A stretch of DNA of 42,858 nucleotides from Escherichia phage Halfdan. Shown in pieces: positions 10,974-36,121 of this stretch (the first letter of the stretch is position 1; each line of letters opens with the position of its first letter). Where the stretch lies: the sequence record NC_072811.1; one strand, written 5' to 3'. The translations under genes were made by a program, and so were the position numbers. The notes below the pieces were generated by a model, which was given only the letters and a program-made list of their open reading frames with translations, was not told where the DNA came from and did not search any database.

Positions 10974-11411
10974 TTATTTCAGTTTTAGTTTATACCGCTG
11001 AACAGCCTTGCGAACCTTGGCTAAACAGCGTTCTACAAATCCGGCCGATTGTTGGGCCGAATAACCGTCGTTCAATCGCTTGATATACGGTTGATTGTTC
11101 GTTATATAAATCTTTTGTCCGGGCTTCTTATTAGCCAATACGGCTTTTGCTTGCGCGATTGTTTCGGCGGCCGATGCGTTGCGCGTCGAACCCTTTTCGC
11201 CGGGATAATGCGCCTTGCCCACATTAGAAGACGGCGCGTCTAAGGTGACTTCCCAAGACGACAGTGCCTTCGACGTATCAACGGGCGTCGTATATGCCAG
11301 TTCAGCGACGGCGGTAACAGCAACAAAAACGGCCGCTTCGCTGGCGGCCGTCTCAATTTCGGCCTTTTTCTTTTCTAGCCGATTGGCTAAGTCTAAAAGA
11401 TTACCGGCCAT
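10974..11411 (-). CDS. hypothetical tail-associated protein
   Basis: 145-aa ORF, ATG 11409-11411, between chaperone and tape measure genes. Confidence 0.4.
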   Translation of the reverse strand: MAGNLLDLANRLEKKKAEIETAASEAAVFVAVTAVAELAYTTPVDTSKALSSWEVTLDAPSSNVGKAHYPGEKGSTRNASAAETIAQAKAVLANKKPGQKIYITNNQPYIKRLNDGYSAQQSAGFVERCLAKVRKAVQRYKLKLK

Positions 11412-12206: not shown

Positions 12207-12271
12207 AATTTCAAATCCTTATTTCGGAAGTTGGAGAAAAACGGGCCGGATATCGCACCGGCCCATTTAGT

Positions 12272-16291: not shown

Positions 16292-17260
16292 TTACTTGGT
16301 CTTGTACAGAACGCCCGCAAGGTCTTTGTGCGAAGTGGAATACTTATCCCAATTCGACGCCGTGAACAGCGCCGCATCGGTCGGCGATTTGCCGCCGTTC
16401 GGCTTGTCCCACGCGAAGCCCTGAATACCGACGTTGTACGACCATTCGGCTTGGTAAGTCCGTTTGATGTTTTCGTCACCGGTTGCCACGGTTTCGGCGG
16501 CGTCGAAGTCGTTGTTTTGACCGACGTAGATACCGCCCTGTACCAGACCCAGCGACATAAAGCCGGAAGCCGGGGACGGGGTAGTTACCGACCATTGCAG
16601 CGACGGCGAGTCGGTCACGACGAACAGACGGCCGAACGGGTCACGGATAACGTTAACCGTGTCGTACTTGAACAGGTTTTCGGCGTTGGTCAACGCATTG
16701 ACGTACAGTTTAGTAACCGGCGTCGAATGCATAATCCATGCACGAATGGCGTTTTGACGGTCGCCGAACAGGCCAGCGGCTTCGGTCAGGCCGACGAAAG
16801 ACGGGTCGGAAGTCGAATCGTCTTTGACGACGGCGGATTGCGCCGACAGGGCCGAAACACCGCAACCGATAGCGGTGTTCAGCATATCGGCCAGCAGGTC
16901 GCCCGCCAGTTGTTGACCGAGTGCCGCGCCAGCGACTTCGGGGTTCTGTTGAATCCAACGGAACTGGCCGGGGTCAAGGCGGATTTCGGAAGTACCGGCC
17001 GCGACCTTAACGGACGTATCGACCAGATGTTTCAGGGTCTTTTGTGCGATTGCGCCGGAACCGTAAGCGTTACGGCGGCGAACCAGACCGGAAATCTTCG
17101 CGAAGAAGGCTTCGTCGGAAAAGTCGCCTTGATGCGCGGCCGGAACCAGAACGATAACGCCGTCGGAAGCGCCGTTGAACAGTTCGATTTGCTGCGCCAG
17201 AACTTCGGTCATCGAAGAATAGGCGTATTCGGAATATACCGCGAGGTCGGAAAGTGCCAT
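16292..17260 (-). CDS. major capsid protein
   Basis: 322 aa; AAGGA SD; immediately follows scaffolding gene. Confidence 0.7.
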   Translation of the reverse strand: MALSDLAVYSEYAYSSMTEVLAQQIELFNGASDGVIVLVPAAHQGDFSDEAFFAKISGLVRRRNAYGSGAIAQKTLKHLVDTSVKVAAGTSEIRLDPGQFRWIQQNPEVAGAALGQQLAGDLLADMLNTAIGCGVSALSAQSAVVKDDSTSDPSFVGLTEAAGLFGDRQNAIRAWIMHSTPVTKLYVNALTNAENLFKYDTVNVIRDPFGRLFVVTDSPSLQWSVTTPSPASGFMSLGLVQGGIYVGQNNDFDAAETVATGDENIKRTYQAEWSYNVGIQGFAWDKPNGGKSPTDAALFTASNWDKYSTSHKDLAGVLYKTK

Positions 17261-17275
17261 GATATAGCGTCCTTA

Positions 17276-17977
17276 TTACTGGTTGTTTGCTTCCGCCTTC
17301 TGCGCCTGAATCCGGGCCGCAAGGTCGCGGGGACTCAGTTTCGACAGGTCGGCGGGTTTGTCGGAATCGTTGTTGAACTTACCGGCACCGCCGTTGACAG
17401 AAGCGCCAGTCTTAGGGGCACCGCCCCCGGACGCTTTGTTACCCCGGATAATAGCAGAAAAATCTTTGTTGGCAACAAATTCGGCGGTAAGTTGTTCGAT
17501 AGTCGTTTCGGACGGTTTGCCGTCGGCCCCAAGAACTTTGGTAGCCGGGGCGTCGCCGCTAAGGTCAGCGGTAAGCCGGGCCTTAATGTGGGGAACCAGC
17601 AACGCCGGGGCGGTACTGATTTCGGTTGCGATTTTGGTTGCGACGGAATCAACCAAAGTCGATTGGATAAACGCGTTCGCCTTCGTCAACTGGCCGTCTT
17701 TCTCGCCAAGTTGCTTTTTCAGTTCTTTATCGAACTTGGCGGCGTTGCCTTGAACTTCGCTGGTAAGCGTTGCGATTTGTTCTTCGGCGTCGCGCAACTT
17801 GCTTTCTACTTCCTTGCGCTGTTTGACTTCGTGGTCTTTAGCGCGGCGAAGTGCGCCGGTATCTTCCAGCCCGTCAACGTCAAGATGGTATTCACCATCT
17901 TTTTCGAAGTATTCGGCTTTGACGGCATCCGACAGCTTGTCGAAAACTTCTTTAGTGATTTTGAGTTTCAGCGCCAT
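17276..17977 (-). CDS. scaffolding protein
   Basis: 233 aa, charged helical composition; between head morphogenesis and capsid genes. Confidence 0.6.
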   Translation of the reverse strand: MALKLKITKEVFDKLSDAVKAEYFEKDGEYHLDVDGLEDTGALRRAKDHEVKQRKEVESKLRDAEEQIATLTSEVQGNAAKFDKELKKQLGEKDGQLTKANAFIQSTLVDSVATKIATEISTAPALLVPHIKARLTADLSGDAPATKVLGADGKPSETTIEQLTAEFVANKDFSAIIRGNKASGGGAPKTGASVNGGAGKFNNDSDKPADLSKLSPRDLAARIQAQKAEANNQ

Positions 17978-24103: not shown

Positions 24104-24494
24104 TAATCGCCTTCAACTGGTATTCAAGCGCCAGAATCCGACGGTCGGCCGCGTTATCGGCCGCTTGCAAATTCTGAATCGTGGAATACGAAAAACCAAC
24201 AAGGCCGGTACAGGCTAACAGTACCGCCCCGGTAATCTTCCAAATGGTCGAATGCGATTGTAATTTCTGGCCGTGAACCGTCGTAACGTCACCTTGCGCC
24301 GAAAGGGCTTTAAATAACCGGTCGGTCTTTGCGTCCAACACTGCGATATCTTTCTGAATCACGGCGAATTGCTGAATAGCGGTATTTTGTGCGATAACCA
24401 TTCCGCGCAATTCTTGGTAATCGTCAAGTACACGACCGATTCGTTCGTATAAAACCGCCAATTCTGGCGACGTAACGTTGTCGTTTTCGGCCAT
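24051..24494 (-). CDS. membrane protein with coiled-coil regions
   Basis: 147 aa from ATG 24492-24494 (GGAAAGGTGG SD); central TM segment ITGAVLLACTGLVGF; immediately upstream of holin. Confidence 0.4.
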   Translation of the reverse strand: MAENDNVTSPELAVLYERIGRVLDDYQELRGMVIAQNTAIQQFAVIQKDIAVLDAKTDRLFKALSAQGDVTTVHGQKLQSHSTIWKITGAVLLACTGLVGFSYSTIQNLQAADNAADRRILALEYQLKAINANDELLRKGWSNDKPR

Positions 24495-24576
24495 GTTTCG
24501 CCACCTTTCCAAGTCGTATTATCCGAAATTAAACGCATTCAATGTCGGATAGCATAACGCAAGATTGACGGACACG

Positions 24577-24610
24577 CAAAGAAAAGCCCCCGGACGCGAT
24601 GCCGGGGGCT
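24577..24610 (-). terminator. rho-independent terminator after gene 24655..25257
   Basis: 9-bp GC-rich stem (24585-24593 / 24602-24610), 8-nt loop, followed on the minus strand by UUUCUUUG; a second hairpin lies at 24614-24631. Confidence 0.65.
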
Positions 24611-24654
24611 TTAATGGGGCCGTCATTGGCCCCGGTTGCTACGGGGTTGCGGCG

Positions 24655-25257
24655 TTACAGGGTACGCCACACGCCCGCGCCCTTGACGCCGGGGAAGCCC
24701 CACGGTGCGCCGTCTTCGACGGTGCGAACGGCGAATTCGCGAATCTGGCGGGTAGCCGGAACGACGTTGCCTTTCGCCGGGGATTTCTTCGGCGCGGGGA
24801 TTTCTTCGGCGTAACGTTCGTTGGCGCTGGTGACAGTGGAAGCCAGCGACTTCGCCGGGTTCGGCTTGGCTTCGGTCGCGGCCACGAAGAACGATTGCCC
24901 TTTTTCCAGCTTGTCGAACGGGTAAGTTTCGGTCGAACGGCCGCCACGGGAAGCGCCCGGCATGGCAACGTCGGCGACAATTGCGAAGTTCGATGCGACG
25001 GCCGGTGCGGCGGAAGCGCCTTCGGTGCCGGTGTTCTGGTTGGTGTTCTGTTCGTTCATAGCTGCGATGCCCTTTTCGGTTGCACGGGTAGCGAAGTCGC
25101 CCCCTTCGTTGGTGATGGTTTCGTTCTGTTCGACCAGACCTTCGGCGACCAGAACTTTCGCGGCCTTGGCGGAAGCGAAGGCGTAACCGGCGTCGCCGGT
25201 AGTTGCGGTAACGATGGCGGCCAGCAGTTCCGAAGCCGCTTTGTTCAGTTTAGCCAT
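24655..25257 (-). CDS. hypothetical protein, independently transcribed
   Basis: 200 aa from ATG 25255-25257 with AAGGAG SD; own TTGACG-N17-TAGAAT promoter and downstream hairpin terminator. Confidence 0.55.
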   Translation of the reverse strand: MAKLNKAASELLAAIVTATTGDAGYAFASAKAAKVLVAEGLVEQNETITNEGGDFATRATEKGIAAMNEQNTNQNTGTEGASAAPAVASNFAIVADVAMPGASRGGRSTETYPFDKLEKGQSFFVAATEAKPNPAKSLASTVTSANERYAEEIPAPKKSPAKGNVVPATRQIREFAVRTVEDGAPWGFPGVKGAGVWRTL

Positions 25258-25325
25258 TTTGAAAACTCCTTGCAAGTAAGTTCTTCGTTTGTCCCCGACG
25301 AACCATTCGGCGGGGTACGTGTTGA

Positions 25326-25354
25326 ATTCTAGGGTAACTTAGCCGACGCGTCAA
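25326..25354 (-). promoter_or_regulatory. sigma70-like promoter for gene 24655..25257
   Basis: minus-strand TTGACG (25349-25354), 17-nt spacer, TAGAAT (25326-25331); same -35 hexamer and spacing as the two rightward promoters. Confidence 0.5.
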
Positions 25355-25357
25355 CAA

Positions 25358-30040: not shown

Positions 30041-30241
30041 TTAGGCCGCGTTAAGTTTGGCGACAGCGGCGTCGATAGCGGCTTGCGTGTCGTCGGTCTT
30101 GATGATGCGGCACTTTTCGTCGGAATACGAATCGTCGCGTTCCTGTTCGACGCATTCGCGGTCGTAGTCGCCAAACTGAACCGACCAAACGCCGTCGGTC
30201 TTGGTCAACAAGCTGAAATACTGTTTCGCTTTCTTCGCCAT
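30041..30241 (-). CDS. hypothetical protein
   Basis: 66 aa from ATG 30239-30241 with GAAGGAG SD; track ORF extends to an ATG at 30322 that lacks an SD. Confidence 0.4.
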   Translation of the reverse strand: MAKKAKQYFSLLTKTDGVWSVQFGDYDRECVEQERDDSYSDEKCRIIKTDDTQAAIDAAVAKLNAA

Positions 30242-30362
30242 TTCGATAACTCCTTCGCTGTATCCGGTGACTGTTGCGACAGTATCGCCGCATTCCGTCG
30301 GACTGTCAACCGGATTTTTCATCGGATAGCAAACCGGTTCGTCGTTTGCCCCTTGGCCCCAG

Positions 30363-30603
30363 CCTTATACGAATTTAAGGGTTCCGATTAGCCCTAAGTC
30401 CTTGTATTTATTGAAGATATAAAAAGTATAAAGAGTATAAGGATAGTACCTATTTTAGTGAATGTACGGAATCCGATAACCAATCCGACGGTTTGGGGGA
30501 TAGAAGGGGAAGTGAAGGTTTATCGCCTTATAACCCTTATACCCTTATAACATCAATGAAATCAGGGGGTTAGGGCTTATACGCGGCCTTAGCCCCCTTA
30601 TAC
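30363..30603. repeat. iteron cluster with AT-rich core (candidate replication origin)
   Basis: at least 7 copies of CC(C)TTATA(A/C) in both orientations, three in tandem at 30526-30550; AT-rich stretch 30400-30470; noncoding gap between primase stop (30624) and next gene. Confidence 0.5.
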
Positions 30604-30623
30604 TGATTCGTCGGATAGGTTAG

Positions 30624-33293: not shown

Positions 33294-33917
33294 ATGACCC
33301 AACCCAAACCCTTCAACTATCAAGCGGAAGCCGTGCAAACCCTGTCGGCTTCGTTCTTTGGCGAATTCGTAAGCCGCGCCGAATTGCTTGGCGCACTGCA
33401 AGCGTTCAGCATCGCCGCCGCCCGGCTTGACGAAATCAAGAAACGCCTGTTCTACGGCCGCAACGTCGAAGCGATGCCGATGTTCGTTCCCGAAGAATCC
33501 ATCGAATCCAGCGAAATGCCTTGGACTTCGGCCGAAGAAACCATCGCGCACGCAATCATCGGCGTCGGCACCGAAGCGGGCGAACTGGCCGACGGTCTTA
33601 TCGCCGCACTGATTAACAAGTTCGGCGGCCAGCCTACCGGCTTCGACCTTGTGAACCTTGGCGAAGAAGGCGGCGACGTTCTTTGGTATCTGGCCGCACT
33701 GGCCCAAGGAACCGAAATCAGCATCGACGGTATGATGCGGGCGAACATCGCCAAACTTCGCAAACGCTACCCGAACAAGTTTACCGCATACGACGCGAAT
33801 AACCGCGACCTTGGCGGCGAACGCGACATTCTGGAATTGATGCAACCGAACTTGCCGGGTATCACTTCGCCGGATGCCGAATTGAAACATCGCATCGAAA
33901 GCGAAAAAGACGCTTGA
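33294..33917 (+). CDS. MazG-like nucleoside triphosphate pyrophosphohydrolase
   Basis: 207 aa; TEAGELAD and GEEGGDVLWYLAAL motifs. Confidence 0.7.
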   Translation: MTQPKPFNYQAEAVQTLSASFFGEFVSRAELLGALQAFSIAAARLDEIKKRLFYGRNVEAMPMFVPEESIESSEMPWTSAEETIAHAIIGVGTEAGELADGLIAALINKFGGQPTGFDLVNLGEEGGDVLWYLAALAQGTEISIDGMMRANIAKLRKRYPNKFTAYDANNRDLGGERDILELMQPNLPGITSPDAELKHRIESEKDA

Positions 33918-33942
33918 CGCGCCGGTTCGATTGACGTATATT
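33914..33942 (+). promoter_or_regulatory. sigma70-like promoter upstream of gene 33995..34462
   Basis: TTGACG (33914-33919), 17-nt spacer, TATATT (33937-33942); overlaps the mazG-like stop codon; followed by leader hairpin 33953-33971. Confidence 0.5.
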
Positions 33943-33994
33943 TCTATTCAACGGGCCGAATTGGTCGGCCCGGTTTAACGAAAGGGTAATCGAA

Positions 33995-34462
33995 ATGACC
34001 GACAACAACGCGCAAGCATGGGGCCAGCCGACCGAAGCCACCAAAACCAACGACCAGCTTATCGGCGAATGGGAAGCGGCGGCGAAACAACTGGCGCACT
34101 TCAAAGCGATTGAAGCGGCGGCCCGTAAGGCGATGGTTGACCGCATGTTCCCGAACAACGCCGGTCTTTCCGGCACCAAAAACGCCGACTTGGCTAACGG
34201 TTACAAGCTGAAAGCCGTGTTCAAGCTGAATTACAGCTTGAACAACAAAGACGATGCCGTCGATAAGGCGCTGTCGAAAATCGAAAAGGCTGGCCCCGAA
34301 GGTCAGTTCATCGCGAACCGTCTGGTCAAATGGAAGCCGGAACTTTCGGTTTCCGAATACAACGAACTTGAACCGAAGTTCAAGAAAATTATTGACGAAG
34401 TGTTGAAGATTTCGGACGGTACGCCGTCGGTTGAAATCGTCGCACCGAAAGAAAAACGTTAA
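33995..34462 (+). CDS. hypothetical early protein
   Basis: 155-aa ORF; AAAGGG SD; precedes Sak4-like gene. Confidence 0.45.
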   Translation: MTDNNAQAWGQPTEATKTNDQLIGEWEAAAKQLAHFKAIEAAARKAMVDRMFPNNAGLSGTKNADLANGYKLKAVFKLNYSLNNKDDAVDKALSKIEKAGPEGQFIANRLVKWKPELSVSEYNELEPKFKKIIDEVLKISDGTPSVEIVAPKEKR

Positions 34463-34514
34463 TCAACGACGCCCGGTTGCCCACATTAGGCCGCCGGGCT
34501 TTTCAGGTGAAACT

Positions 34515-35195
34515 ATGCAAACACGCGACTTACGACCGGCCGGGGATTTCGCCCGGCAATACGGCGTCAAGATGTTGGCCTATGGGCCGCCCGGTTCGGG
34601 TAAGACGCCGCTTATCAACACCGCACCGCGCCCGGTATTGCTGATTACCGAACCGGGTATGTTGTCGATGCGCGGTTCGACGGTTCCCGCATGGGAAGCG
34701 CCAACGGTTGAACGAATCGACGAATTCTTCGATTGGCTGTTTCGGTCGAATGAATCCAAAGGTTTCGATACCGTCGGCGTCGATTCAGTGTCGCAACTGG
34801 CCGAAATCGTGGTGAAAGCCGAATTGAAACGCAACCGCGACGGTCGGAAGGCTTACGGCGAAATGGCCCGAAAGGTACTAGACCACCTTACCGGCCTGTA
34901 CTACATGCAACAGAAACACACGTATCTAATCGCAAAACAAGCGATGGCGGAAGAAGAAGGTACGCAAGTTAAGAAACCGTATTTCCCCGGTCAAGAATTG
35001 GGGATTCAGGTTCCGCACTTGTACGACCTAATCGGGCATGTTGCAAAGACGACGGTTCCCGGTGTACAATCGCAAGTGTTGGCGATTCGCACCGCACCAA
35101 CCTTCGGAATCAACGCACCACGCGACCGAAGCGGTCGGCTTAACGAACTGGAACAACCAGATTTAACGGCACTGTTCAAAAAGGCAATGTCGTAA
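34515..35195 (+). CDS. Sak4-like RecA-fold ATPase (recombination / single-strand annealing)
   Basis: 226 aa from ATG 34515 (track ORF starts upstream at a non-ATG codon); Walker A AYGPPGSGKT and Walker-B-like VGVDSVSQL. Confidence 0.7.
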   Translation: MQTRDLRPAGDFARQYGVKMLAYGPPGSGKTPLINTAPRPVLLITEPGMLSMRGSTVPAWEAPTVERIDEFFDWLFRSNESKGFDTVGVDSVSQLAEIVVKAELKRNRDGRKAYGEMARKVLDHLTGLYYMQQKHTYLIAKQAMAEEEGTQVKKPYFPGQELGIQVPHLYDLIGHVAKTTVPGVQSQVLAIRTAPTFGINAPRDRSGRLNELEQPDLTALFKKAMS

Positions 35196-35251
35196 ATAAC
35201 CGAATTCGACACGGTTTGATTGTCGGAACTTTTCGAAAAGGTAGAAACAAA

Positions 35252-36061
35252 ATGGCTCAATTGATGCAAGCGTTCGACGCACGTAACGTAGACCCGACCC
35301 AAGGCGTCGGCGGTTTGCCAATCGGCAAGCATCCGGTTATCGCTATCAAGTCGGAAGTAAAGCCGACCAAGGATAACGATTCCGGTTATCTGCAATTCGA
35401 CTTGCAGGTTATCGACGGCCCGAACAAAGGTGCGGTCGGCGCTTACCGCCTGAACCTGTACCATACCAACCCGCAAACCGTCGAAATCGCGCACAAACAG
35501 TTGTCGGCTTTGTGCCACGTTACCGGCGTGTTCCAAGTGCAAGATTCGCAACAGTTGCACAACATCCCGTTTATGGTCGAAGTCGGGTTGCAGAAAGAAC
35601 CGAACCCGAACAAGTACACCGACGTAAAACGCGTGTTCGATATCAACGGTAACGAACCCGGCCACGCCAACGGCAACGGTCAAGCCGCGCAGAACAACGG
35701 CGGCCAAGCCGGTAACAACGGCGGTTCGTGGGGCAACCAGCAACAGAACGGCGGCCAGAACCAGCAGCAAAACAACGGCGGCAATAACGCCGGTTGGGGC
35801 GGTCAATCGCAAGTCGCGAACAACGTTCCGATGCCGGATAACAACGGCGGTAACAACCAGAACCAAGGCCAGAACAACGGCGGCGGTAATCCGGGTTGGG
35901 GCCAGAACAACGGCAACAACGGCCAGCAGGGCAACCAGCAGGGCGGCGGCTGGCAAGGCAACCAGCAGGGCAACCAAGGCCAGCAGCAAGGCAACGGCGG
36001 CGGCTGGAACCAGAACCAAGGCAACGGCGGCGGCCAACCGGCTTGGGGCCAACCGCGCTAA
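35252..36061 (+). CDS. putative ssDNA-binding partner of Sak4 with G/N/Q/W-rich C-terminal tail
   Basis: 269 aa from ATG 35252; globular N-terminal ~140 aa then ~130-aa low-complexity tail with periodic GW; functional call by context. Confidence 0.4.
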   Translation: MAQLMQAFDARNVDPTQGVGGLPIGKHPVIAIKSEVKPTKDNDSGYLQFDLQVIDGPNKGAVGAYRLNLYHTNPQTVEIAHKQLSALCHVTGVFQVQDSQQLHNIPFMVEVGLQKEPNPNKYTDVKRVFDINGNEPGHANGNGQAAQNNGGQAGNNGGSWGNQQQNGGQNQQQNNGGNNAGWGGQSQVANNVPMPDNNGGNNQNQGQNNGGGNPGWGQNNGNNGQQGNQQGGGWQGNQQGNQGQQQGNGGGWNQNQGNGGGQPAWGQPR

Positions 36062-36076
36062 GTCGCAATCAACGGT

Positions 36077-36104
36077 AAGGGGCTTCGGCCCCTTATCGTC
36101 TTTA
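36077..36104 (+). terminator. candidate terminator after gene 35252..36061
   Basis: stem AAGGGGC/GCCCCTT with TTCG tetraloop, then ATCGTCTTT. Confidence 0.45.
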
Positions 36105-36121
36105 CAGGGGAATAATGCCGT

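What the first reader, a model, noticed from the sequence alone, without database searches (positions are those of the whole stretch)
24577..25354. Stand-alone promoter-to-terminator unit encoding a 200-aa protein of unknown function
Gene 24655..25257 has its own TTGACG-N17-TAGAAT promoter (the same -35 hexamer and spacing as the two rightward early promoters), a consensus AAGGAG SD and a strong hairpin terminator, inside a block of otherwise translationally coupled genes. The protein has no motif I recognise. An autonomously and probably early expressed gene of this kind is a good candidate for a host-takeover or anti-defence factor.
Basis: partly seen in the sequence, partly recalled or inferred. 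Interest (0 to 1): 0.55.

Follow-up and report, generated by a model that had tools for sequence, protein, structure and literature searches.

The report
Insulated high-expression cassette for conserved DUF7303 protein
A phage gene with its own strong promoter and the genome's strongest terminator is real, but it encodes a core protein conserved across a large group of tailed phages, most likely an abundant nucleic-acid-binding factor of unknown exact role, not a host-specific anti-defence gadget.

Summary
The window is Escherichia phage Halfdan (Lokivirus). Gene 24655-25257 (minus strand, 200 aa) has a TTGACG-N17-TAGAAT promoter, an AAGGAG ribosome-binding site and a double-hairpin terminator, the strongest in the genome. 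Its neighbours overlap or nearly touch.

The cassette is conserved. Seventeen relatives, from phages of at least nine host genera, keep a sigma-70-like promoter, and 16 keep a terminator whose stem sequence differs between lineages.

The protein is a full-length member of Pfam DUF7303, of unknown function. It has three parts:
- an acidic winged-helix-like N-domain
- a disordered linker
- a basic C-domain, preceded by an RGGR arm, with no structural relative among solved structures

It is a core gene, present in all four distant genomes tested and conserved about as well as the SSB. Most neighbouring small genes are found in none or only one of those genomes. It always sits just upstream of the lysis, terminase and structural genes.

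The anti-defence or host-takeover reading is therefore not supported. My best reading is inferred, not shown: an abundantly made nucleic-acid-binding protein acting on phage DNA or transcription, with the terminator shielding the lysis genes from its strong promoter. Its function remains untested.

The parts
25326..25354 (-). Sigma-70-type promoter TTGACG-N17-TAGAAT of the DUF7303 gene; predicted transcript start near 25319.
   Evidence: Scores 10 of 12. It is one of only three TTGACG-N17-TAnnnT sites in the genome, against 0.39 expected. An equivalent promoter scoring 7-11 of 12 was found upstream of the homologue in all 17 loci examined.
25291..25318 (-). 5'-terminal stem-loop of the predicted mRNA (GUACCCCGCCGAAUGGUUCGUCGGGGAC). 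It probably stabilises the mRNA; that role is inferred.
   Evidence: Folds at -13.9 kcal/mol (z = -2.1) and starts 1 nt from the predicted 5' end. A hairpin with 2 or fewer unpaired 5' nucleotides is seen in 10-11 of 17 loci, with different sequences, so it is common but not universal.
25266..25271 (-). Shine-Dalgarno sequence AAGGAG, 8 nt upstream of the ATG.
   Evidence: Read directly from the sequence. AAGGAG-like sites occur in the relatives (alignment A3).
24655..25257 (-). CDS of 200 aa, a full-length DUF7303 protein (hypothetical protein P7I17_gp27 of phage Halfdan).
   Evidence: Pfam PF23978, E = 1.7e-57, covering residues 3-199. phrog_7597, E = 1.2e-54. 723 homologues, and 122 phage records that all annotate it as hypothetical.
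25042..25257 (-). N-terminal domain (residues 1-72): acidic, winged-helix-like fold.
24952..25041 (-). Disordered linker rich in Ala, Pro, Val and Thr (residues 73-102).
   Evidence: pLDDT below 50. Length varies from 20 to 45 residues in the family and the mean net charge is -1.4.
24658..24951 (-). C-terminal domain (residues 103-200): an RGGR arm followed by a conserved basic beta-alpha-beta4 domain containing the motif YPFxxLxxGQSFFV.
24577..24633 (-). Tandem-hairpin intrinsic terminator ending in TTTTCTTTG.
   Evidence: The 101-nt region folds at -40.7 kcal/mol, z = -2.9. It is the strongest terminator candidate in the genome. A terminator is present in 16 of 17 loci, with stems that differ in sequence between lineages, and one is annotated independently in phages Loki and Guyu.
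24551..24579 (-). Candidate late promoter abutting the terminator: TTGCGT (24579-24574), 17 nt, TATGCT (24556-24551), upstream of the first late gene (ATG at 24494).
   Evidence: Scores only 7 of 12 in Halfdan, which is not significant alone (P = 0.24). However, a promoter-like site with its -35 starting exactly 6 nt into the T-tract recurs in 9 loci, reaching 9 of 12 in Pavpe01 and QH3 (alignment A4).

Best explanation
The unit is an insulated, high-output expression cassette for a core phage protein that binds nucleic acid and is needed in large amounts.

Shown:
- A host-type promoter, a frequent 5' stem-loop, a strong ribosome-binding site and the genome's strongest terminator surround a gene with SSB-like codon bias.
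- The whole arrangement is conserved across phages of many host genera.
- The protein has an acidic winged-helix-like N-domain, a flexible linker and a conserved basic C-domain preceded by an RGGR arm.

Inferred:
- The basic C-domain and arm bind DNA or RNA.
- The acidic N-domain, whose helix and wing are not basic, mediates self-association or contact with another protein.
- The protein acts stoichiometrically on replicating phage DNA or on its transcription, at the boundary between the replication genes and the late genes.
- The terminator stops the strong promoter, and read-through from the upstream early and middle genes, from driving the holin and endolysin genes too early. Those genes start from their own weak promoter, which begins inside the terminator's T-tract.
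For: Cassette and its conservation.

High expression: GC3 of 0.72 ranks 3rd of 54 genes, next to SSB at 0.73. The terminator is the strongest in the genome. The 5' hairpin is seen.

Core status: found in 4 of 4 distant genomes and ranked 19th of 56. Synteny is fixed. The family has 1341 clusters with one architecture.

Nucleic-acid binding: the C-domain has pI 9.8 against 4.7 for the N-domain. An RGG-type arm occurs in 52 of 66 members, and a quarter of members have Lys/Thr/Ala-rich basic N-terminal tails.

The protein is really made: the phiAxp-1 homologue was detected by LC-MS/MS at trace level, together with DNA-handling enzymes (PMC4764938).

No phage RNA polymerase is annotated and the only annotated regulator-like protein is a DksA-like zinc-finger protein, so regulatory and architectural roles are unassigned in this genome.
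Against: No binding has been shown, and no specific DNA motif was found. TATCCGA looked enriched but is compositional. The inverted repeat at 24520-24551 is not conserved in Pavpe01.

The C-domain has no structural or sequence relative of known function, so calling it nucleic-acid-binding rests on charge and motifs alone. Codon bias separates genes only weakly here. The 5' hairpin is absent from about a third of loci. An SSB is separately encoded, so that role is already filled.
Confidence: 0.4

Rival explanations
1. It is a sequence-specific transcription factor that drives the switch to late genes, similar in logic to T4 MotA. One domain contacts host RNA polymerase and the other binds DNA at the weak late promoter that abuts the gene's own terminator, or it shuts off early promoters.
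For: - The gene always sits directly upstream of the roughly 24-kb late operon.
- The late promoter has a conserved poor -35 (TTGCGT or TTGCCT), as activator-dependent promoters often do.
- No other late regulator is annotated except a DksA-like zinc-finger protein.
- The putative recognition helix is variable while the C-domain is conserved.
Against: - There is no sequence relationship to MotA (hhalign probability 0.7% and 0.1%), and the C-domain is not a MotA double-wing fold.
- No conserved operator was found.
- The late promoter keeps TTG plus a reasonable -10, so it may work unaided.
- A regulator rarely needs expression signals this strong.
Confidence: 0.2
2. It is a host-takeover or anti-defence factor: an early, abundant protein that neutralises a widely conserved host function, for example a nuclease or restriction system, as T7 Ocr or lambda Gam do.
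For: - It has an autonomous sigma-70 promoter sharing the -35 and spacing of the early promoters.
- Its expression signals are strong.
- The N-domain and linker are acidic, a feature of DNA-mimic inhibitors.
- It has no known function.
Against: - Its conservation and synteny are those of a core gene, across phages of alpha-, beta- and gamma-proteobacteria, unlike the variable small genes around it.
- The overall pI is 6.4 and the most conserved part is basic, so it is not an Ocr-like mimic.
- It lies at the distal end of the leftward arm, not at its start.
- It matches no model in PADLOC, although that library covers defence proteins rather than anti-defence proteins.
Confidence: 0.15
3. It is a Q-like antiterminator embedded in its own promoter-terminator unit. 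Once enough protein has been made, it modifies polymerase starting at its own promoter so that it reads through the terminator into the lysis, terminase and structural genes.
For: - The position matches lambda Q: about 200 aa, directly upstream of lysis genes, then terminase, then head and tail genes.
- A strong promoter is followed by a strong terminator ahead of the late operon.
- Further strong terminators lie inside the late operon at 12241 and 11329.
- From general knowledge, Q proteins form several unrelated sequence families.
Against: - No Q family of Pfam matches.
- Family members have at most one cysteine, so there is no zinc site.
- A separate promoter-like element is conserved downstream of the terminator, which makes read-through unnecessary.
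- In lambda, the Q gene lies upstream of its target promoter, not inside the terminated transcript.
Confidence: 0.07
4. It is a virion or morphogenetic protein encoded outside the structural module.
For: The phiAxp-1 homologue (AKJ71360.1) is listed among proteins detected in a virion preparation (PMC4764938 Table 3). The gene is adjacent to the late genes.
Against: - Its emPAI was 0.3 against 11.3 for the portal, and the same preparation contained helicase, recombinase, endonuclease and terminase, so it is at contaminant level.
- It is separated from the late operon by the strongest terminator in the genome and driven by an early-type promoter.
- It has no structural similarity to any virion protein.
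Confidence: 0.05

Closest known systems
Pfam DUF7303 (PF23978) / PHROG 7597
   Same: Full-length match, E = 1.7e-57 and 1.2e-54, so this gene is a typical member. All 122 phage records annotate their copy as hypothetical.
   Different: Nothing differs in sequence. What this analysis adds is the domain anatomy, the core-gene status and the conserved expression cassette. The family has no assigned function, and no paper in the library mentions it.
Phage T4 MotA (middle-transcription activator)
   Different: There is no detectable sequence relationship. The C-domain does not match the MotA double-wing domain. The fold similarity is no better than to dozens of generic winged helices. No AsiA-like partner is annotated.
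MarR-type winged-helix DNA-binding domains
   Different: The putative recognition helix and wing are net negative (-0.7 and -1.0) and the helix is poorly conserved. The domain is monomer-sized, without the MarR dimerisation helices.
Abundant phage-encoded DNA-binding proteins such as phi29 p6 and SPO1 TF1 (from general knowledge)
   Same: A stand-alone, strongly expressed early gene for a small protein that would act stoichiometrically on phage DNA and influence replication and the early-to-late switch.
   Different: There is no homology: no HU/IHF or other DNA-binding Pfam family matches. The architecture differs, and binding is not demonstrated.
Lambda Q and the PR'-tR' late-control region (from general knowledge)
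   Same: A protein of similar size encoded immediately upstream of a single long operon ordered lysis genes, terminase, head, tail, with a promoter and strong terminator at the junction.
   Different: No Q family matches and there is no zinc-binding cysteine set. The gene lies inside the terminated unit, and a separate promoter follows the terminator.

Membership tests
Pfam DUF7303 (PF23978) | Full-length match to the family HMM above the gathering score of 27 bits. | tested here: met
   194.5 bits, E = 1.7e-57, residues 3-199 matched to profile positions 6-194 of 195. Each half also matches alone.
PHROG 7597 | Match to the PHROG profile. | tested here: met
   E = 1.2e-54, residues 1-199 matched to profile positions 1-192 of 193; functional category unknown.
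Winged-helix (MarR-like) DNA-binding domain | Winged-helix fold. | tested here: met
Winged-helix (MarR-like) DNA-binding domain | A basic, conserved DNA-contacting recognition helix and wing. | tested here: not met
   Family mean net charge is -0.73 on the helix and -1.0 on the wing. The helix is variable and the wing tip reads NEAGE. Domain pI is 4.7. Only R58 is invariant.
T4 MotA family | Sequence homology to MotA. | tested here: not met
   hhalign of the family profile against T4 MotA gives probability 0.7% (full length) and 0.1% (C-domain). No MotA Pfam family was hit.
T4 MotA family | C-terminal double-wing DNA-binding domain. | tested here: not met
T4 MotA family | An N-domain that binds the sigma-70 C-terminus, and an AsiA co-factor. 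| not testable with these tools
Lambda-type Q antiterminators | Match to a known Q protein family. | tested here: not met
   Only DUF7303 was found in Pfam at E up to 1, and nothing in NCBIfam.
Lambda-type Q antiterminators | Gene immediately upstream of a promoter-terminator pair that heads the late operon (lysis genes, terminase, structural genes). | tested here: inconclusive
   The position matches. However, the gene lies between the promoter and the terminator, and a second promoter-like site follows the terminator.
Anti-defence / host-takeover accessory genes | Patchy, lineage- or host-specific distribution and variable position. | tested here: not met
   Found in 4 of 4 distant genomes at 43-50% identity and ranked 19th of 56, while most neighbouring small genes are in 0-1 of 4. 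Synteny is fixed.
Anti-defence / host-takeover accessory genes | Demonstrated inhibition of a host system, or toxicity. | not testable with these tools
   Needs expression and plating experiments.
Virion structural proteins | Stoichiometric presence in purified virions. | tested here: not met
   From the literature, not a computation: the phiAxp-1 homologue had emPAI 0.3 against 11.3 for the portal, in a preparation that also contained helicase, recombinase and terminase (PMC4764938 Table 3).

The most novel reading that the evidence does not exclude
DUF7303 would be a previously unrecognised, very widespread family of phage factors that time late gene expression through host RNA polymerase. 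The conserved basic C-domain and the acidic winged-helix-like domain would together link the polymerase to the junction where the gene's own terminator overlaps the weak late promoter. The protein would either activate that promoter or allow read-through of the terminator, so that its accumulation sets the moment at which lysis and virion genes switch on. It would be unrelated in sequence and C-domain fold to MotA, Q, Ogr, Mor and gp33/55.
Probability: 0.12. Interest if true: 0.75.

Novelty: new variant of a known kind. Interest (0 to 1): 0.4.

Why it matters
This protein is a core component of a large clade of roughly 42-46 kb siphoviruses. The clade includes Septimatrevirus, Lokivirus, Titanvirus and relatives infecting Pseudomonas, Acinetobacter, Stenotrophomonas, Xanthomonas, Achromobacter, Rhodobacter and E. 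coli, and many members are being developed for phage therapy or plant protection. The searches here found no published work on how these phages time their late genes or organise their DNA, and they encode no annotated RNA polymerase. The only annotated regulator-like protein is a DksA-like zinc-finger protein.

A core, apparently abundant protein with a structurally unassigned conserved domain is a well-defined experimental target. One knock-out combined with time-resolved RNA-seq would say whether it is a regulator, an architectural protein or a host-directed factor.

The cassette itself may also be useful as a compact, portable expression module for proteobacteria. It combines a strong promoter, a 5' stem-loop, a consensus ribosome-binding site and a very strong terminator fused to the next promoter.

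Tried and rejected

2. **TATCCGA as a binding motif.** It occurs 23 times against 4.75 in dinucleotide shuffles, with two copies forming an inverted repeat in the late-gene gap. A maximal-order Markov model expects 20.8 (z = 0.47) and the flanks show no consensus, so the excess is compositional. The left arm of the inverted repeat is not conserved in Pavpe01.

3. **Gene next to the genome ends.** In the Ab26 and RcTitan records the homologue is the last gene. But RcTitan-type genomes are circularly permuted with headful packaging (PMC8601537), so the record start is a convention.

4. **Domain fusions or named relatives of the C-domain.**
   - The profile search of 1.84 billion representatives found 1341 hits, and all of the top 150 have the same architecture.
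   - BFVD returned only unannotated phage proteins.
   - PDB sequence searches found nothing.
   - NCBIfam and PADLOC found nothing.
   - The afdb50 fold library was not available.

5. **Known RNA families in the untranslated regions.** There were only sub-threshold hits, driven by the terminator hairpins.

6. **Literature.** No paper mentions DUF7303, and the searches found no transcriptomic or functional study of this clade.

7. **Repeats inside the gene's own promoter region.** None were found.

Full report
**What the window is.** The window is 99% identical to Escherichia phage Halfdan (Juelich variant, PP954860; genus Lokivirus) over the 2-kb stretch compared, and 98% to phage Shy. It appears to be essentially the whole genome, about 42.86 kb. 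Genes from 71 to 33129 run on the minus strand. In order of transcription they are: primase, about 17 small genes, dCMP deaminase, the gene of interest, lysis genes, terminase, then head and tail genes. Genes from 33294 to 42835 run on the plus strand and include MazG, Sak4, SSB, exonuclease, helicase, clamp and DNA polymerase. No phage RNA polymerase is annotated.

**Check of the observation.**
- The promoter TTGACG-N17-TAGAAT lies at 25354-25326 and scores 10 of 12.
- AAGGAG lies at 25271-25266, 8 nt before the ATG at 25257.
- The ORF is 200 aa and ends at 24655.
- Two GC-rich hairpins follow, at 24633-24616 and 24612-24583, and run into TTTTCTTTG (-40.7 kcal/mol, z = -2.9).

The built-in terminator scan missed this site because three T's pair with AAA at the base of the stem. 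My own scan ranks it the strongest intrinsic terminator in the genome, at -21.1 kcal/mol.

The pattern TTGACG-N17-TAnnnT occurs only three times in the genome, against 0.39 expected. The flanking gaps are 100 and 160 bp, while neighbouring genes overlap or lie within 13 nt of each other. A single consensus match is weak evidence, since 12 sites were found in 10 kb against 6.6 expected. I therefore tested conservation.

**The cassette is conserved.** I examined 17 loci. Eleven are named phages of Escherichia, Pseudomonas, Xanthomonas, Acinetobacter, Rhodobacter, Paracoccus, Sphingomonas, Achromobacter and Stenotrophomonas. Six are metagenomic relatives at 57-92% protein identity.
- Every locus has intergenic gaps on both sides of the homologue and a sigma-70-like promoter scoring 7-11 of 12 within 130 nt upstream.
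- Sixteen of 17 have a hairpin and T-tract terminator of -16 to -28 kcal/mol within about 140 nt after the stop codon.
- The stems differ completely in sequence between lineages while the T-tract is kept (alignment A4). Selection therefore acts on the structure.
- Terminators at this spot were annotated independently in phages Loki and Guyu.
- A stem-loop starting within 2 nt of the predicted transcript start is present in 10-11 of 17 loci, with different sequences. From general knowledge, such 5'-terminal hairpins protect mRNAs from RNase E.
- The gene's GC3 (0.72) ranks third of 54 genes, next to the SSB at 0.73.

Together these signals point to a monocistronic, highly expressed, well-insulated gene.

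**What follows the terminator.** In nine loci a promoter-like element begins exactly 6 nt into the T-tract. It has a weak -35 (TTGCGT or TTGCCT), a 17-18 nt spacer and then TATGCT, TATCAT or TATTAT. In Halfdan the -35 is at 24579-24574 and the -10 at 24556-24551, scoring 7 of 12. Pavpe01 and QH3 reach 9 of 12. Each match is marginal on its own, and only 8 of 17 reach P of 0.1 or less. The constant position argues for a real, weak late promoter fused to the terminator. The first late genes are a small membrane protein, then holin and endolysin. The simplest reading of the strong terminator is that it keeps the strong upstream promoter, and read-through from the early and middle genes, from switching on lysis genes too early.

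**The protein.** It is a full-length member of Pfam DUF7303 (E = 1.7e-57) and of phrog_7597, both of unknown function. There is nothing in NCBIfam, PADLOC or PDB sequences, and no paper in the library mentions the family. It has 723 close homologues, mostly on 42-46 kb contigs. All 122 phage records call it hypothetical. A profile of the C-terminal half finds 1341 clusters at 50% identity, and all of the top 150 have the same 180-280 aa architecture.

AlphaFold2 gives two confident domains joined by a disordered linker (residues 73-110).

**Core gene or accessory gene.** I compared all Halfdan proteins by tblastn with complete genomes of Ab26 (Pseudomonas), RcTitan (Rhodobacter), vB_PmaS-R3 (Paracoccus) and phiAxp-1 (Achromobacter). 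DUF7303 is present in all four at 43-50% identity. It ranks 19th of 56, level with SSB, head-closure and tail-terminator proteins. Of the roughly 17 small genes between primase and the lysis cassette, only DUF7303 and a VRR-NUC-like protein are found in all four genomes; most of the rest are found in none or only one. The synteny is invariant: dCMP deaminase or small ORFs, then DUF7303, a gap, a small ORF, and then holin, endolysin, Rz and terminase. This is the main argument against a host-specific takeover or anti-defence role.

**Experimental trace.** In the phiAxp-1 paper the homologue (AKJ71360.1, orf35) is listed among 18 proteins detected by LC-MS/MS in a virion preparation. Its emPAI was 0.3, against 11.3 for the portal, and helicase, recombinase, a VRR-NUC endonuclease and terminase were also detected (PMC4764938 Table 3). 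This shows the protein is made. It also suggests the protein travels with DNA-associated contaminants and is not a stoichiometric virion component.

**Most likely mechanism.** I commit to the following reading at about 0.4 confidence. The protein is an abundantly produced nucleic-acid-binding protein. The basic C-domain with its RGG arm would be the binding module, and the acidic winged-helix-like domain an interaction module. It would act on the phage's own DNA or transcription from early in infection, and the cassette exists to deliver high output while insulating the lysis genes.

The shown steps are the cassette and its conservation, the domain anatomy, the charge split, the core-gene status and the fact that the protein is expressed. 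The inferred steps are binding, abundance and site of action.

A sharper version is a MotA-like late-switch factor working at the terminator-promoter junction. It is attractive because of the gene's position, the weak conserved -35 and the lack of another annotated regulator. I rate it at about 0.2. There is no homology to MotA, no operator was found, and the late promoter may work unaided. The remaining rivals are:
- Anti-defence or host takeover: 0.15
- Q-like self-antitermination: 0.07
- Virion role: 0.05

**Comparison with known systems.** The gene is a member of DUF7303 and phrog_7597 (tested, met). Its N-domain has the winged-helix fold (met) but lacks the basic DNA-reading surface (not met). 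It is not a member of the MotA family (sequence and C-domain fold not met) or of known Q families (no Pfam match; at most one cysteine per protein). It resembles MotA in architecture, lambda Q in genomic position, and phi29 p6 or SPO1 TF1 in being a stand-alone, strongly expressed early gene. Each of these is an analogy only.

**Novelty and interest.** The gene and its family are already catalogued as of unknown function. This analysis adds several points:
- the two-domain anatomy, with a structurally unassigned, highly conserved basic domain
- the core-gene status
- the conserved insulated cassette
- the terminator-promoter junction

I rate it a new variant of a known kind (a phage-encoded winged-helix-containing nucleic-acid-binding factor), with interest 0.4. 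It is not startling. It is, however, a clean, widespread and experimentally tractable unknown in phages of therapeutic relevance. The most novel reading not excluded is a new family of late-timing factors, at probability about 0.12.

Noticed in passing
window 30238-30623: The 386-bp gap after the primase-helicase gene holds 6 of the genome's 8 copies of CCTTATA (2.6 expected), plus degenerate copies in both orientations. These surround an AT-rich core and two sigma-70-like promoters at 30462 and 30309 on the minus strand. It looks like an iteron array, so it may be a replication origin or a regulator-binding array.
   Followed up: partly
window 24551-24579 (also L007, L011, L018-L021, L023): A terminator-promoter junction: the T-tract of the DUF7303 terminator runs directly into a weak -35 (TTGCGT or TTGCCT) of a candidate late promoter. 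The -35 starts exactly 6 nt into the T-tract in nine loci.
   Followed up: yes
window about 25250-25357 and 24519-24626 (PP954860 38158-38265 and 38889-38996): The public annotation of the Juelich variant places two 35-aa hypothetical CDSs over the promoter/5' UTR and over the terminator. Independent gene calls on six related contigs and the annotations of other phages have no gene there, so these CDSs are probably spurious.
   Followed up: partly
window 16292-17977 (PP954860 2588-4612): The public record annotates one long hypothetical CDS on the opposite strand where the window carries the major capsid (16292-17260) and scaffold (17276-17977) genes. These are 55-67% and 37-52% identical to the capsid and scaffold regions of the relatives.
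   Followed up: partly
window 12212-12241 and 11303-11329, minus strand: Two further strong intrinsic terminators lie inside the late operon: one just after the major tail gene (-19.2 kcal/mol) and one in the tail-chaperone region (-16.8 kcal/mol). They are upstream of about 11 kb of tail genes, which implies leaky termination or antitermination.
   Followed up: no
whole window: 7-mers containing TTCG or CGAA are strongly over-represented (for example TTCGTCG, 57 copies against 5.5 expected from base composition). This makes many short words look enriched against dinucleotide shuffles. TATCCGA (23 against 4.75) is one such false lead.
   Followed up: yes
L002 / L011 / L012 (Ab26, QH3, Guyu), 5' UTR of the homologue: In the Septimatrevirus copies a second hairpin (CCUUAACGUUAAGG) partly sequesters the Shine-Dalgarno sequence of the DUF7303 gene. 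This may point to translational control.
   Followed up: no
phiAxp-1 (L016), literature: In the phiAxp-1 virion LC-MS/MS table the VRR-NUC-type endonuclease has emPAI 5.76, far above the other non-structural proteins. Its Halfdan counterpart is the only other small gene of this block found in all four distant genomes.
   Followed up: no
PP954860 record header: A phage named for Escherichia was re-isolated in near-identical form (99% over the 2-kb stretch compared) on Pseudomonas taiwanensis. This suggests an unusually broad or misassigned host range for Halfdan.
   Followed up: no
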